The translations under genes and the position numbers were made by a program. This document shows, one piece after another, positions 13,013 through 32,554 of a DNA stretch of 64,000 nucleotides. Position 1 is the first letter of the stretch. Each line of letters opens with the position of its first letter. The DNA is from a virus. Location: the IMG/VR virus record IMGVR_UViG_3300046170_000449, positions 1-64,000 of that record. One strand, given 5' to 3'. The notes below the pieces were generated by a model. The model worked only from the letters and a program-made list of their open reading frames with translations. It did not search any database and was not told the DNA's origin.

Positions 13013-13432
13013 ATGCGTACTTATATTCAACAACCAGGCCAAGTAGGTGTCCAAGGTGGAACCATTGGTAATGCTGGTTACCTTGCTCAGATGCCACCAG
13101 CTATTAATCCTGCGGCACATAGAGGTGCACAGAAGGGAGCAAAAATTTACAATAAAGGAGTAAACACAGAGAATCCATATGAGAAAAAAACTTTTTTAGA
13201 TAGGACCGGACCACAGCTTCCACCTATGGCCAGGATGGATGGACAGCGGCCTGCAAACTTAGGTCAAGTTGATGATGCTTTTTATGAGCAACAGCAAAGG
13301 GAGCAGTTACAAGCATTAATAGAACAGCAAGAAACCCAGTTAAATAATGGGCTTTATGGCGGCGGCCAATATGATCAAGCCGATCAATTTCCAGCAACAG
13401 GTGCTGGCTTCCAAGCAAAGTACGTAAGCTAA
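13013..13432 (+). CDS. hypothetical Gln-rich protein
   Basis: 139-aa ORF. Confidence 0.6.
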   Translation: MRTYIQQPGQVGVQGGTIGNAGYLAQMPPAINPAAHRGAQKGAKIYNKGVNTENPYEKKTFLDRTGPQLPPMARMDGQRPANLGQVDDAFYEQQQREQLQALIEQQETQLNNGLYGGGQYDQADQFPATGAGFQAKYVS

Positions 13433-13433
13433 A

Positions 13434-13625
13434 ATGGAACTAGCAGGTAAGTGGTTACAAGAAGCACCACCTAAAAAACGTGATTATCGAGGTGTACCTA
13501 TCTATCAAACAGAAGGCAACGTTAGATCTGCACGTCCACCACGCAATGCGCCCTCTTCTTTCTTCGCGTCTCCTGGAAGAAAAGGTTCAGGTTTTGCAAA
13601 CATTGACACATCAAGACAGTTCTAA
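13434..13625 (+). CDS. small hypothetical protein with N-terminal LAGKW motif
   Basis: 63 aa, coupled to neighbours. Confidence 0.55.
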   Translation: MELAGKWLQEAPPKKRDYRGVPIYQTEGNVRSARPPRNAPSSFFASPGRKGSGFANIDTSRQF

Positions 13626-13729
13626 TGACACAAGACAGTGATAGTTCCAAATATACAAAGTCAGGACTGCGTGAACGGATTAAAAACCGTGTCATGAAAG
13701 GCACTAAAGGCGGTAAAGCCGGTCAGTGA
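13625..13729 (+). pseudogene. truncated 5' copy of the small basic (DUF5872-like) gene
   Basis: 34 aa MTQDSDSSKYTKSGLRERIKNRVMKGTKGGKAGQ*, paralogous to 14366-14467; TGA falls where the paralog has TGG (Trp). Confidence 0.8.
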
Positions 13730-13764
13730 TTTTGTGCTATTGTAAGAAAAGCACAAATTAACCG

Positions 13765-14373
13765 ATGCAAAAGTTTTGCCGGGAATGCGGAATTAGGAAA
13801 CCACATGAAAATTTTAGAACTAAAGGGTATAACTCCGCTGGTAATATAAAAAGAGACAGTGTATGTAAAGATTGCAGATCCTTAGTTAACCGTCGATTAC
13901 GGCTTTTATATGGAGTAGATGGTCGAAAACAATGTTCTAAATGTGCTCATTATTTAGATTGGGATTGTTTTAGAAGGCGAAAGCAAGATGGTAAATTGTA
14001 TCTTCATTCTTCATGCAAAACCTGCAATAAGCTAAGTTGGGATAAATGGGTAAACAATAACAAAGAACACTATCAAAAAGTTAAAAAACAAGGGCAAAAT
14101 TTATTGCATCACAACCACAAAAAATACGAACGCAGAGGGATAACAAAAGAGCAATATGACATTGTCTTTGAGGCCCAAAAAGGTTTATGTGCAATTTGCC
14201 AAAAGCCTCCCAAGGATAAACAATCTTTAGCCATGGACCATAATCATCAAACCAATGAGTTTAGAGGTCTATTGTGCAAAGAGTGTAATAGAGCGCTAGG
14301 TTTATTTGGTGGTAACATAGATGTATTGACAAACGCAGTTACTTATCTTAAAGAGCGAGGAAGTTATGGCTGA
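13765..14373 (+). mobile_element. free-standing homing endonuclease, Endonuclease VII-type HNH
   Basis: two N-terminal CxxC-CxxC Zn ribbons, then GITKEQY...QKGLCAIC...MDHNH...RGLLCKECNRALG; lies between two copies of the same gene start. Confidence 0.85.
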
Positions 14374-14680
14374 AGACAAAAGCAAGTACACGAAACCAGA
14401 CCTGCGTGAGCGCATCAAAAACAAAGTTATGCGTGAAGGCCGTGGGGGTAAACCGGGAGAATGGTCGTAGCCGTAAGGCTAACTAATTATTTCGGCGCGT
14501 AAAGCACAGCTCGTAGCTTCCGAGTATAAGAAAGCTGGTGGCGGGTACAAAGGTGGAGAAGGAAAGAAACAAAAATCTTTAAAGAAATGGGCTAAAGAAG
14601 ATTGGCAAACTAAAGATCAATATGAAAAAGGTAAGAAAGCTGCTACTGCAGCCAAAAAAGCTAAGGAGAAAAAATCATGA
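14366..14680 (+). CDS. small basic DUF5872-like protein, interrupted; predicted 95-aa product via ribosomal bypass (14366-14467 joined to 14495-14680)
   Basis: KYTKPDLRERIKNK...GGKPGEWS and ARKAQLVASEYKKAGGGYKG...SLKKW...DWQTK form the contiguous family sequence once the 27-nt gap is removed; GAGG SD at 14357-14360. Confidence 0.75.
14465..14494 (+). other. candidate programmed translational bypass element (T4 gene 60-like)
   Basis: TCG take-off (14465), TAG, hairpin TAGCC-GTAA-GGCTA, ACTA-ATTATT, TCG landing (14492); three in-frame stops in the gap. Confidence 0.7.
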
Positions 14681-14892
14681 AAATAGCAGGTAGATATAAT
14701 AATTACACACCTGAAATTTTTCCGAATCAAAAATTAATGCAATCTCTTGCACAACACACTAATAATGCAGAGCTTCAAAAAGCTTTATTAGATTTTCAAT
14801 ATCCTTTTACAGTAGCTGAATTAAAAAATAGCGGCTATGCTCCTCAAGTTGTTAATGAGATTTTAAACATTACTAAAACTGTATCATCATGA
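14677..14892 (+). CDS. hypothetical protein with N-terminal IAGRY motif
   Basis: 71 aa, AAGGAG SD, ATGA overlap. Confidence 0.65.
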   Translation: MKIAGRYNNYTPEIFPNQKLMQSLAQHTNNAELQKALLDFQYPFTVAELKNSGYAPQVVNEILNITKTVSS

Positions 14893-15011
14893 AACAAGCC
14901 AAAAAAGATTTACAGAAGATCTCTAAGCAATTGAAAGGTAGTGCAAAGATGCATGCTAGCCAAGCCAAAAAGATTGACAAACTTGCCGGTAAGTATATGG
15001 AGAAAAAATAA
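14889..15011 (+). CDS. small basic protein (not in ORF track)
   Basis: 40 aa MKQAKKDLQKISKQLKGSAKMHASQAKKIDKLAGKYMEKK; overlaps both neighbours. Confidence 0.65.
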   Translation: MKQAKKDLQKISKQLKGSAKMHASQAKKIDKLAGKYMEKK

Positions 15012-32072: not shown

Positions 32073-32369
32073 ATGTCTAAAGCAAAGAAAGCTGCTAGTG
32101 CAGCCAAGCTGCATAAAGATAAAATGGCATGTAATAAACCAAAGAAAACACCTGGTCATAAAACTAAATCGCATGTCGTAAAAGCATGTGAAGATGGTAA
32201 AGAAAAGATTATTCGTTTCGGCCAGCAAGGAGTTAAAGGAGCAGGAAAGAATCCAAAGACAGCCAAAGACAAAGCACGTAAAAAATCATATTATGCACGG
32301 CATAACGCACAAGATAGTAAACCAAGTAAAATGAGTGCTAGGTACTGGTCACACAAGGTAAAATGGTAA
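32073..32369 (+). CDS. small basic protein
   Basis: KIIRFGQQG...RKKSYYARH...SARYWS pattern found in many phages. Confidence 0.7.
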   Translation: MSKAKKAASAAKLHKDKMACNKPKKTPGHKTKSHVVKACEDGKEKIIRFGQQGVKGAGKNPKTAKDKARKKSYYARHNAQDSKPSKMSARYWSHKVKW

Positions 32370-32554
32370 TGAATTTAGCAGGAAAATATCAATAACAAAT
32401 GCCTACCCTTCAAGAAGGTTTAAATCATTTAAAAGGTAAATTAAGAAATCTTGCACCAGGTAGTTTAGAGTATCAACATATATTAAATATGATTGGAGAG
32501 TTTGAAAAGGATATGGCTATGGTTGCTAAAGATACTCAACAGTACATAAGGTAA
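32369..32554 (+). pseudogene. small gene with in-frame TAA (CAA-TAA-CAA); pseudogene or recoded
   Basis: MNLAGKYQ*QMPTLQEG...QYIR*; TAATG-coupled start, stop at 32393-32395, second ATG at 32399. Confidence 0.5.

What the first reader, a model, noticed from the sequence alone, without database searches (positions are those of the whole stretch)
13625..14680. Homing endonuclease + duplicated gene start + bypass gap form a self-immune mobile cassette
Seen in sequence: copy 1 (13625-13729, SKYTKSGLRERIKNRVMKGTKGGKAGQ*) stops exactly at the conserved Trp codon. An EndoVII-type HNH gene follows. A diverged copy 2 of the same N-terminus (SKYTKPDLRERIKNKVMREGRGGKPGEWS) then starts within the last codons of the endonuclease, with its SD inside that gene, and is itself interrupted one codon further on by the gap. 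Both copies are therefore broken at the same conserved site. Established knowledge: in T4 the mobA homing endonuclease and the 50-nt gene 60 bypass sequence act as a mobile cassette, and the gap disrupts the cleavage site. Inference: this endonuclease targets GQWSARKAQ-coding DNA, carries a replacement 5' half to rebuild the host gene, and uses a ribosome-skipped insert rather than an intron or intein for immunity.
Basis: partly seen in the sequence, partly recalled or inferred. Interest (0 to 1): 0.88.

Follow-up and report, generated by a model that had tools for sequence, protein, structure and literature searches.

The report
Mobile endonuclease cassette with ribosome-hop gap
A 763-base selfish DNA cassette (a homing-type endonuclease gene, a spare copy of the first third of the gene it invaded, and a 27-base untranslated gap that ribosomes most likely hop over) sits inside a small conserved phage gene; it appears to be the first relative of the phage T4 gene 60 "bypass" found outside topoisomerase genes.

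Summary
Comparative data support most of the interpretation.

- **Insertion.** Cassette-free relatives, 84-95% identical in the flanks, carry one uninterrupted 94-97 aa DUF5872 gene. The window has 763 nt (13729-14491) inserted at the Trp codon.
- **Cassette contents.** A hairpin, an EndoVII-motif (DHHRN-type) HNH gene, a replacement 34-codon 5' half (copy 2), then the gap.
- **Gap.** UCG take-off, UAG, stem-loop UAGCC-GUAA-GGCUA, an A/U-rich stretch, then UCG landing. T4 gene 60 has the same 5-bp stem.
- **Relatives.** About 90 related loci (the two collections overlap) all combine this endonuclease, or its remnants, with a gap of 23-33 nt. The length is often not a multiple of three. Take-off is always UCG+UAG, the loop is almost always GNRA, and landing is UCG (rarely UCU or UCA).
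- **Controls.** None of 85 uninterrupted alleles has the endonuclease within 1.5 kb.
- **Origin of the copies.** Copy 2 forms one cassette lineage (dN/dS about 0.15). Copy 1 is the resident allele and decays in many genomes. Copy 2 and the 3' half stay intact everywhere.

Translational bypassing is therefore the best reading (about 0.75). The cleavage site and self-immunity are inferred, not shown. I class it as a new variant of a known kind, of high interest.

The parts
13625..13729 (+). Copy 1: the resident 5' part of the DUF5872 gene (34 codons), cut off by TGA at the Trp codon. A relic.
   Evidence: It is co-linear with cassette-free alleles L070, L071 and L076 up to 13728. It sits among native alleles in the tree. 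In other genomes it has lost its start, is frameshifted, or is deleted.
13729..14491 (+). Inserted mobile block (763 nt), absent from cassette-free relatives.
   Evidence: Searches give the boundaries. The block is 85-91% (endonuclease) and 90-98% (copy 2) identical among loci whose copy 1 and 3' half are only about 70-84% identical.
13731..13757 (+). Hairpin at the cassette's 5' end (8-bp arms TTTGTGCT / AGCACAAA), between the copy 1 stop and the endonuclease start. Role unknown.
   Evidence: -9.9 kcal/mol, z -2.1; 6 pairs kept in 19 loci, with one compensatory U-A to C-G change. There is no U-run after it.
13765..14373 (+). Endonuclease gene, 202 aa: a Cys-rich N-terminal part plus a C-terminal EndoVII / beta-beta-alpha-metal motif (D158 H159 H161 R167 N175).
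   Evidence: (PF02945, E 1.7e-21), (catalytic residues invariant down to 50% identity).
14357..14360 (+). Shine-Dalgarno-like GAGG for copy 2, inside the endonuclease ORF, 5 nt before the ATG.
   Evidence: Read directly from the sequence.
14366..14467 (+). Copy 2: the cassette-borne replacement 5' part (34 codons), ending G-E-W-S. The take-off codon is TCG at 14465-14467.
   Evidence: ATG plus 34 codons intact in all loci; dN/dS about 0.15; one lineage.
14468..14494 (+). 27-nt gap that is not decoded: TAG stop, stem-loop, A/U-rich stretch, and the landing codon TCG at 14492-14494.
   Evidence: Relatives have gaps of 23-33 nt with the same parts.
14468..14481 (+). Take-off stem-loop TAGCC-GTAA-GGCTA (5 bp, GNRA loop).
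   Evidence: Loops seen in relatives: GTAA, GTGA, GCAA, GGGA, GAGA, GAAA, TTAG. T4 gene 60 has TAGCC-TTCG-GGCTA.
14495..14679 (+). Resident 3' part of the DUF5872 gene (61 codons plus stop), with no start codon of its own.
   Evidence: It is 88-94% identical to cassette-free L070 and L071. It is open and full-length in all loci.

Best explanation
The window holds a homing-type mobile cassette inside a small conserved phage gene (DUF5872, function unknown) of a complete 78-kb genome related to Synechococcus phage S-EIVl.

Shown by comparison:
- A 763-nt block has been inserted at the Trp codon of the invariant GQWSARKAQ motif.
- The insertion turns TGG into a stop, so the resident 5' part (copy 1) becomes a dead 34-codon stub.
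- The block carries an EndoVII-motif (DHHRN-type) HNH endonuclease gene. Overlapping its last codons, it also carries its own ribosome-binding site and a full replacement of the first 34 codons (copy 2).

Inferred:
- Ribosomes translating copy 2 reach Ser-34 (UCG) with UAG in the A site.
- The hairpin UAGCC-GNRA-GGCUA, which starts at that stop, hinders termination.
- Peptidyl-tRNA-Ser lets go. The ribosome slides over the A/U-rich rest of the gap, which holds no other UCN codon, and re-pairs at the UCG 27 nt downstream.
- Translation resumes at Ala (GCG 14495). The product is a 95-aa protein of native length.

Inferred by analogy with T4 MobA and gene 60:
- The endonuclease cuts or nicks cassette-free alleles at or near the conserved motif in mixed infections.
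- Repair copies the cassette, plus a few dozen flanking bases, into the broken allele.
- The gap in copy 2 and the stop plus hairpin after copy 1 keep the two halves of the target apart, so the carrier is not cut.
For: **Insertion and mobility**
- Homology to cassette-free relatives ends at 13728 and resumes at 14492.
- Near-identical genome pairs exist with and without the cassette. Their differences cluster within about 12 nt to the left and about 35 nt to the right of the junctions, as co-conversion tracts would.
- The cassette is much more conserved than its flanks across loci.
- Copy 2 forms one lineage and copy 1 is scattered among native alleles.
- Association is complete: no uninterrupted allele out of 85 has the endonuclease nearby, and every endonuclease locus with readable downstream sequence has a gap.
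- The endonuclease's catalytic residues are invariant.

**Bypass**
- 30 distinct gap sequences have lengths of 23, 24, 26, 27, 28, 29, 32 and 33 nt. Neither readthrough nor a single frameshift can join the halves.
- Take-off is always UCG+UAG. Landing is UCG in over 90% of loci and otherwise UCU or UCA, although UCG is the Ser codon in only 11 of 85 native alleles.
- UCG is also the rarest Ser codon in this genome, at 6.4%.
- No TC dinucleotide occurs inside any of the 16 gap variants checked.
- Loop variation stays within GNRA, or UUAG.
- The stem is identical to that of T4 gene 60.

**The joined gene is maintained**
- Copy 2 is under purifying selection (dN 0.17, dS 1.13).
- Copy 2 and the 3' half are intact in all 37 + 58 loci, with 46 distinct 3' proteins.
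- The redundant copy 1 has decayed or vanished in at least 12 loci.
- The 3' half has no ATG, GTG or TTG.
- The gap persists after the endonuclease is lost (L037, L038, L044, L055, L051, L061).

**Other**
- A metatranscriptome contig of a relative runs across copy 2, gap and landing site with no letters missing.
- No Rfam family matches the region.
Against: - There is no direct evidence of translation, of a joined protein, or of cleavage.
- The hairpin has only 5 bp, against about 10 bp in T4, and its folding z-scores are modest (-1.5 to -2.8).
- One lineage (L021, L185, L199) lacks the G+C hairpin altogether.
- No GAG-type Shine-Dalgarno-like element sits 6 nt before the landing codon as in T4. 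The nearest (R)AGG lies in the hairpin's 3' arm, 9-13 nt away in the four gaps checked by eye.
- Take-off and landing codons never co-vary, because take-off is always UCG. The stem never varies either, so there is no covariation proof.
- A frequently homing element keeps meeting fresh intact alleles. The intact 3' halves are therefore weaker evidence of selection than they look.
- The metatranscriptome contig could be carried-over DNA.
- The host, and so its ribosomes and tRNA-Ser set, is unknown. The window encodes no tRNA.
Confidence: 0.75

Rival explanations
1. Selfish insertion that simply kills a dispensable gene. The gap would be only a spacer that destroys the endonuclease's target, or a recombination scar. 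Ribosomes would stop at UAG and the 3' half would not be made.
For: DUF5872 has no known function. Frequent homing could explain intact 3' halves without selection. No expression data exist.
Against: This does not explain several things. The cassette carries and conserves a complete in-frame replacement 5' half with its own SD (dN/dS 0.15). Take-off and landing codons match in more than 90% of loci, using a rare codon. The gap avoids any other UCN. Loops stay GNRA. In genomes where copy 1 has already decayed, implying long residence, copy 2 and the 3' half are still intact.
Confidence: 0.1
2. Split gene: the protein is made as two peptides. Translation would terminate at UAG after copy 2, and the ribosome would re-initiate just downstream to make the 3' half. 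The two pieces would then associate, as in the mobE-split nrdA of phage Aeh1.
For: The window has in-frame ATT ATT just before the landing codon and an AAGG 8-11 nt upstream. Split genes created by homing endonucleases are known (Manning and Atkins preprint).
Against: The 3' half has no ATG, GTG or TTG in frame. In the gap variants read by eye, the bases before the landing codon offer no in-frame start; one ATG seen is out of frame. What is conserved instead is the UCG/UCG pair.
Confidence: 0.06
3. The hairpin plus T-rich tail is a transcription terminator, attenuator or RNA-stability element serving the endonuclease and copy 2 message. The resemblance to gene 60 would be coincidental.
For: The simple terminator scan flags 14468-14481 plus its tail. 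CC-tetraloop-GG hairpins also act as RNA stabilisers in T4 (preprint).
Against: A 5-bp stem with 3 G-C pairs is weak. One terminator-like site is no more than the shuffles give (mean 1.6). The idea explains neither the matched codons, nor the stop placed exactly after the take-off codon, nor the intact in-register 3' half. The hairpin-less lineage keeps the matched UCG codons. This reading is compatible with bypass rather than exclusive of it.
Confidence: 0.04
4. The mobile cassette is real, but the endonuclease targets a different site (for example in a neighbouring gene). In that case the gap does not serve immunity, only restoration of the gene.
For: Free-standing homing endonucleases of T4 often cut tens to hundreds of bases from their insertion point (my own knowledge). 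In T4 the bypass lies about 20 nt from the MobA nick. No cleavage data exist here.
Against: The insertion point is the same codon in every genomic background. The flanking genes differ between backgrounds: the window's neighbours are found in only a few loci. The DUF5872 motif is therefore the only sequence shared by all recipients. Co-conversion tracts are short, about 12 and 35 nt, which fits a cut close to the junction.
Confidence: 0.15

Closest known systems
Phage T4 gene 60 coding gap with the MobA homing-endonuclease element (Bonocora et al. 2011, from my own knowledge; Manning and Atkins, bioRxiv 10.1101/2022.08.31.505936)
   Same: - A free-standing HNH-superfamily endonuclease gene lies inside a conserved phage gene.
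- The element brings a new start and an N-terminal piece homologous to the displaced host sequence, overlapping the end of the endonuclease ORF.
- The untranslated gap is the last part of the insert and ends at the landing codon.
- Take-off and landing codons match, with UAG directly after take-off.
- The stem UAGCC/GGCUA is identical and capped by a stable tetraloop; GNRA and UUAG loops also occur in the MobA family.
[quoted passage not shown]
- The endonuclease decays while the gap stays.
- Some lineages have a short gap and little or no hairpin, like the 20-nt Aeromonas clade.
   Different: - The target gene is DUF5872, not the topoisomerase II large subunit. The preprint states the elements are 'exclusively' in Topo2L.
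- The endonuclease shows no detectable similarity to MobA and belongs to the EndoVII-motif family.
- The codons are Ser UCG, not Gly or Asp.
- The gap is 23-33 nt, not 50.
- The stem is 5 bp, not about 10.
- There is no C-terminal extension on the upstream fragment. The upstream fragment is not reused as a subunit: it is replaced outright and decays.
- The host phages are S-EIVl-like aquatic phages, not T4-like myoviruses of gamma-proteobacteria.
F-CphI / DHHRN family of homing endonucleases with the EndoVII catalytic motif (cyanophage S-PM2; PMC6083498)
   Same: The EndoVII motif is C-terminal, with D, H, H, R and N conserved. The gene is free-standing and sits in an aquatic phage.
   Different: F-CphI sits beside psbA, next to a group I intron, with no gene duplication and no bypass. 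I did not compare the two sequences directly.
Genes split by free-standing homing endonucleases: mobE in nrdA of phage Aeh1, and 'fractured genes' with split inteins (PMC2677866; preprint discussion)
   Same: An endonuclease gene is inserted within a coding sequence, and the element carries a device that restores gene function.
   Different: In those cases function is restored at the protein level, by subunit association or trans-splicing. Here it is restored by a duplicated 5' half plus a translational hop.
Other proposed translational hops: candidate bypassing in Streptomyces phages (PMC10732093, abstract only) and the mitochondrial 'byps' of Magnusiomyces (from my own knowledge)
   Same: Non-decoded inserts within ORFs, bounded by matched codons.
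   Different: Different signals. They are not linked to a homing endonuclease and do not have the UAG-hairpin architecture.

Membership tests
Gene 60-type programmed translational bypass | Matched take-off and landing codons read by one tRNA | tested here: met
   UCG/UCG in the window. UCG/UCG in over 90% of about 95 loci, otherwise UCG/UCU or UCG/UCA. Native alleles use UCG in only 11 of 85.
Gene 60-type programmed translational bypass | [quoted passage not shown] | tested here: met
   UAG follows the take-off codon in every locus.
Gene 60-type programmed translational bypass | Take-off stem-loop with a stable tetraloop starting at the stop codon | tested here: met
   UAGCC-GNRA-GGCUA, with the same stem as T4. 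It is shorter (5 bp), and it is absent in the L021/L185/L199 lineage.
Gene 60-type programmed translational bypass | Gap cannot be crossed by readthrough or a single frameshift | tested here: met
   Three in-frame stops in the window. Gap lengths of 23, 26, 28, 29 and 32 nt in relatives.
Gene 60-type programmed translational bypass | Shine-Dalgarno-like element about 6 nt 5' of the landing codon | tested here: inconclusive
   The only (R)AGG is in the 3' arm of the hairpin, 9-13 nt before the landing codon in the gaps read. The spacing is not that of T4.
Gene 60-type programmed translational bypass | Nascent-peptide signal in the exit tunnel | not testable with these tools
   Copy 2 is conserved, with cassette-specific residues such as E32 in place of the near-invariant Q, but there is no functional test.
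Gene 60-type programmed translational bypass | A single polypeptide is made from the two ORFs | not testable with these tools
   Indirect evidence only.
MobA mobile element (Manning and Atkins) | Inserted in the topoisomerase II large-subunit gene | tested here: not met
   The host gene is DUF5872 / phrog_17747.
MobA mobile element (Manning and Atkins) | Encodes a MobA-type HNH endonuclease | tested here: not met
   BLASTP against the homing endonuclease annotated at the mobA position in phage PD112 finds nothing (E 8.5). The Pfam families differ.
MobA mobile element (Manning and Atkins) | N-terminal extension with a host-homologous region, followed by the bypass at the 3' end of the insert | tested here: met
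EndoVII-motif (DHHRN) homing endonucleases | EndoVII catalytic motif with conserved D, H, H, R, N | tested here: met
   PF02945 at 76 bits against a cut-off of 23.6. D158, H159, H161, R167 and N175 are invariant in alignment A2.
EndoVII-motif (DHHRN) homing endonucleases | Site-specific cleavage of the element-free allele | not testable with these tools
Homing (mobile) genetic element | Presence/absence polymorphism at one site in near-identical genomes, with co-conversion of flanks | tested here: met
   L030 against L082 and L011 against L070. Window against L070, L071 and L076. The cassette and flank phylogenies are discordant.
DUF5872 (PF19197) | Match to the family model | tested here: inconclusive
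   The read-through translation scores 19.1 bits, below the 27.5 cut-off. It is nonetheless 70-77% identical to proteins that carry PF19197 and aligns along its full length.

The most novel reading that the evidence does not exclude
The UAG + tetraloop-hairpin + A/U-rich gap would be a portable bypass module, not a one-off of T4-like topoisomerase genes. It has either moved between, or evolved twice in, unrelated homing endonucleases (MobA-type and EndoVII-type), unrelated target genes and distant phage groups, and it works with a different tRNA (Ser) and a gap half as long. Programmed ribosome hopping would then be a general third route, beside introns and inteins, by which homing endonucleases invade conserved coding sequence. 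The roughly 30 natural gap variants found here would form a ready-made mutational series for working out the minimal requirements of bypassing.
Probability: 0.45. Interest if true: 0.92.

Novelty: new variant of a known kind. Interest (0 to 1): 0.85.

Why it matters
For over 30 years gene 60 has been the textbook case of programmed translational bypassing in bacteria and phages. The most recent survey I could find (Manning and Atkins 2022) found relatives only in topoisomerase genes of T4-like phages and calls the cassette unique.

A second, independent family would show that the mechanism is not tied to one gene, one tRNA or one enzyme. This one has a different gene, endonuclease family, codon and gap length, and sits in aquatic S-EIVl-like phages.

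It would also give a natural series of minimal gaps (23-33 nt, a 5-bp hairpin, and even hairpin-less forms) for mechanistic work. It would strengthen the idea that bypass gaps exist because they let homing endonucleases sit inside conserved codons while protecting their carrier.

Finally, gene callers annotate such loci as two fragments plus an endonuclease, so further cases are probably hidden in metagenomes.

Tried and rejected
- **Readthrough or a single frameshift.** Rejected: the window has three in-frame stops, and many relatives have gaps that are not multiples of three.
- **Intron or other known RNA.** Rfam finds nothing in 13400-14900 except a chance snoRNA-like hit at E 0.97. A gap of 23-33 nt is too short for a self-splicing intron.
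- **Homology of the endonuclease to MobA.** None detectable.
- **Covariation proof for the take-off stem.** Not possible: the five pairs never vary where the hairpin is present.
- **The same hairpin in other genes.** An exact search for the 14-nt hairpin in IMG/VR gave 73 hits that I examined. Apart from DUF5872 loci, the hits I read through were ordinary coding sequence in another frame or antisense. The tempting CCG...CCG case in L232/L290 lies antisense to a 290-aa Gly-rich gene.
- **Distant relatives of the endonuclease (32-44% identity; L039-L041, L045, L046 inspected).** These look like free-standing genes among other ORFs, with no DUF5872 fragment beside them.
- **Solved structures for DUF5872.** None.
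- **Literature.** No paper in the library links bypassing with DUF5872, cyanophages or EndoVII-type endonucleases.
- **Sequencing runs.** Only contigs were available. The one metatranscriptome contig keeps the gap, but DNA carry-over cannot be excluded. Runs with small shares were not used for any habitat claim.
- **Promoter scan.** No more sites than in shuffled sequence.
- **tRNAs.** None in the window.
Full report
**1. The observation**

- Copy 1 (13625-13729) encodes 34 residues ending ...KAGQ. Its TGA stands where relatives have Trp.
- A 202-aa ORF (13765-14373) follows 35 nt later. It matches Pfam Endonuclease_7 (PF02945, E 1.7e-21) and PHROG 'endonuclease VII' families.
- Copy 2 begins at ATG 14366, eight bases inside that ORF. 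GAGG lies 5 nt upstream of the ATG. Copy 2 encodes 34 residues ending ...GEWS (TCG 14465-14467) and meets TAG at 14468.
- The rest of the gene resumes at GCG 14495 (ARKAQ...) and ends at 14679.
- Copy 1, copy 2 and the 3' half share one reading frame. The 27 nt between copy 2 and the 3' half hold TAG, TAA and TAA in frame.
- The genome is a complete 78,033-bp virus record with terminal repeats. Its only isolated relative is Synechococcus phage S-EIVl, with 70% portal protein identity. 'Cyanophage' is therefore an inference.

**2. What the interrupted gene is**

Reading through the stops gives a protein 70-77% identical to hundreds of 94-97 aa proteins of family DUF5872 / phrog_17747. All of them are uninterrupted, including the S-EIVl homologue. 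In the alignment, the window's only difference in length is a nine-codon insert right after the invariant G-Q-W-S. The function of the family is unknown, and it has no solved relative.

**3. The insertion mapped against cassette-free genomes**

I fetched loci through the downstream neighbour gene. This gave genomes 84-95% identical to the window in both flanks. Their homology runs to window 13728 and resumes at 14492.

The inserted block is therefore 13729-14491 (763 nt). Its first base converts the resident TGG into TGA. In other loci the junction stop is TAA.

Two other pairs are almost identical outside the cassette: L030 against L082 (98.8% left, 97.3% right) and L011 against L070 (about 98%). 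In these pairs the few differences cluster within about 12 nt to the left and about 35 nt to the right of the junctions, as expected for co-conversion during homing. In L011 the landing codon is TCG where its cassette-free twin has TCT. The landing codon therefore usually travels with the cassette.

**4. A population of cassettes**

Searches with the endonuclease protein and with the gap sequence gave 37 non-redundant IMG/VR loci. A metagenome search with an endonuclease alignment, which is blind to the gap, gave 58 loci with readable downstream sequence. The two sets overlap.

The architecture is constant. Positions below are relative to the first base of the gap:

| Part | Position |
|---|---|
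| Copy 1 | about -840 to -738 |
| Hairpin | between copy 1 and the endonuclease gene |
| Endonuclease gene | -702 to -97 |
| Copy 2 | -101 to 0 |
| Gap, then 3' half | from 0 |

- Every locus with readable sequence has a gap.
- Conversely, 85 uninterrupted alleles have no endonuclease within 1.5 kb.
- Four loci keep only the last 21-62 residues of the endonuclease, and two keep none. All six retain copy 2 and the gap. The MobA family shows the same order of decay.
- Among the loci closest to the window, the endonuclease and copy 2 are 85-98% identical, while copy 1 and the 3' half are about 70-84% identical.
- In a tree of the 75-nt core, the 36 copy-2 sequences are compatible with one clade. 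The constrained tree is 50 log-likelihood units better than the free quick search (AU p 0.84).
- In the same tree, the 22 copy-1 sequences are scattered among native alleles: 17 changes, against 20.8 when labels are shuffled.
- So copy 2 belongs to the mobile element and copy 1 is the resident allele.

**5. The gap**

The loci carry 30 distinct gap sequences.

- *Invariant:* the take-off codon UCG and the UAG after it.
- *Nearly invariant:* the stem UAGCC/GGCUA and a landing UCG. Landing is UCU in two IMG/VR and two metagenome loci, which may overlap, and UCA in two loci.
- *Variable:*
  - the loop: GUAA, GUGA, GCAA, GGGA, GAGA and GAAA, which are all GNRA, plus UUAG;
  - the A/U-rich spacer;
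  - the length: 23, 24, 26, 27, 28, 29, 32 or 33 nt.

Because many lengths are not multiples of three, only a hop from UCG to UCG joins the two halves in frame.

UCG is the Ser codon at this position in just 11 of 85 native alleles, and it is the rarest Ser codon in the window at 6.4%. No gap variant checked contains another TC dinucleotide, so a scanning peptidyl-tRNA-Ser would meet no earlier cognate codon.

One lineage (L021, L185, L199) has a 24-nt A/U-rich gap without the G+C hairpin but keeps UCG-UAG...UCG.

T4 gene 60, read from the T4 record, has GGA|UAGCC-UUCG-GGCUA...AUUAUU-GGA. The five stem pairs are the same, and the same six bases precede the landing codon as in the window.

RNAfold gives the hairpin in each context tested. 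It also gives a closing helix between GUCG at take-off and CGGC at landing. The z-scores are modest, -1.5 to -2.8.

**6. Is the joined gene used?**

- In all 37 + 58 loci, copy 2 has its ATG and 34 open codons.
- In every locus where the contig allows, the 3' half is open for 47-62 codons; one locus has 120. There are 46 distinct 3' proteins.
- Copy 2 evolves under purifying selection: mean dN 0.17 and dS 1.13 over 36 distinct sequences.
- The 3' half has no ATG, GTG or TTG.
- The redundant copy 1 serves as an internal neutral control:
  - it has lost its start in L002;
  - it is frameshifted in L016;
  - it is reduced to a few codons in L019, L178 and L190;
  - it is absent in L028, L032, L034, L050 and others.
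- A 696-nt contig from a metatranscriptome library covers 14007-14511 of a relative with the gap present and no indel. This argues weakly against removal at the RNA level, since DNA carry-over is possible.
- Rfam finds no RNA family.

**7. The endonuclease**

Eight cassette endonucleases, 50-94% identical, keep all Cys pairs of the N-terminal part. They also keep D158, H159, H161, R167 and N175 of the EndoVII motif. These are the 'DHHRN' residues that define the family of the cyanophage homing endonuclease F-CphI (PMC6083498).

The enzyme shows no detectable similarity to the homing endonuclease annotated at the mobA position in a T4 relative, phage PD112.

Its target is not known. The DUF5872 motif is the only sequence shared by all recipient backgrounds, and the co-conversion tracts are short. 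Both points favour a cut close to the insertion point.

**8. Mechanism proposed**

- *Shown:* the insertion, its mobility, the replacement 5' half, the strict association with the gap, and conservation of the bypass signals.
- *Inferred:* ribosomes take off from UCG at the UAG-hairpin, slide 23-33 nt and land on the next UCG, giving a native-length protein. The endonuclease cuts intact GQWSARKAQ-coding alleles. The gap in copy 2, and the stop plus hairpin after copy 1, keep the target halves apart and protect the carrier.

Rivals are a dead gene, two peptides made by re-initiation, a terminator hairpin, and a target elsewhere. They are listed with their evidence; none explains the matched rare codons.

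**9. Comparison with what is known**

The closest system is the T4 gene 60 / MobA element. Manning and Atkins (bioRxiv 2022) found dozens of homologues. All are in the topoisomerase II large-subunit gene of T4-like phages, with Gly or Asp codons and mostly 50-nt gaps, and they describe the cassette as unique.

The present family works like that element and may be distantly related to its RNA part. It fails two membership criteria: it is not in Topo2L and it has no MobA. It also differs in these ways:
- the codon is Ser UCG;
- the gap is shorter;
- the stem is shorter;
- the upstream fragment is replaced rather than reused.

I found no paper describing it. I therefore class it as a new variant of a known kind.

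**10. Verdict**

| Claim | Confidence |
|---|---|
| Mobile cassette | about 0.9 |
| Bypass | about 0.75 |
| Target site and immunity | about 0.55 |

Those notes were unchecked and agree with what I tested.

Noticed in passing
window 13730-13761: In copy 1's frame, the cassette's 5' end reads F-C-A-I-V-R-K-A-Q after the TGA. The 12 bases AGAAAAGCACAA (13746-13757) are the same words that encode R-K-A-Q in some cassette-free alleles (L079, L110). They are conserved in all cassettes and form the 3' arm of the hairpin. This may be a relic of an older target half carried by the element.
   Followed up: partly
window 13434, 14677, 32370; L001:4156: Several small ORFs start with M-x-(L/I)-A-G-(K/R)-(Y/W): MELAGKW, MKIAGRY, MNLAGKY, and S-EIVl MKLAGKY. 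This is a shared N-terminal tag of unknown meaning.
   Followed up: no
window 32368-32400: A short ORF has CAA TAA CAA (a stop between matched codons), noted earlier by the scan (e1-6091054). I only read the sequence. It has no hairpin like the one at 14468.
   Followed up: no
window 14464-14496; L029:3695-3735; L008:3695-3740: RNAfold pairs GUCG (end of the Trp codon plus the take-off UCG) with CGGC (landing UCG plus the start of the Ala codon). This closes the whole gap into one compact two-helix structure that brings take-off and landing codons together.
   Followed up: partly
L021:3560-3900; L185; L199: This cassette lineage has a 24-nt A/U-rich gap that lacks the G+C hairpin, and the endonuclease ORF has lost its usual stop. 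It occurs with at least two different 3' halves (L185 and L199), so it seems to spread.
   Followed up: partly
L037:2900-3300: The first 140 codons of the endonuclease are deleted between TGTGCTAT of the 5' hairpin and TGTGCAAT in the L-C-A-I-C codons, which looks like a microhomology deletion. L044 fuses copy 1 directly to the RGLLCKECN codons.
   Followed up: partly
window 14456-14467 and all cassettes: Copy 2 always has Glu (GAA or GAG) where 83 of 85 native alleles have Gln. This creates GGAG or GGGG about 5 nt before the take-off codon. It could be a Shine-Dalgarno-like pause signal, a nascent-peptide residue, or a change that spoils the endonuclease's target.
   Followed up: no
L136, L137, L139 (IMG/VR): These DUF5872 homologues have an uninterrupted GQWSARKAQ motif but a match about 120 nt longer than usual, so they have some other insertion or extension in the gene.
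   Followed up: no
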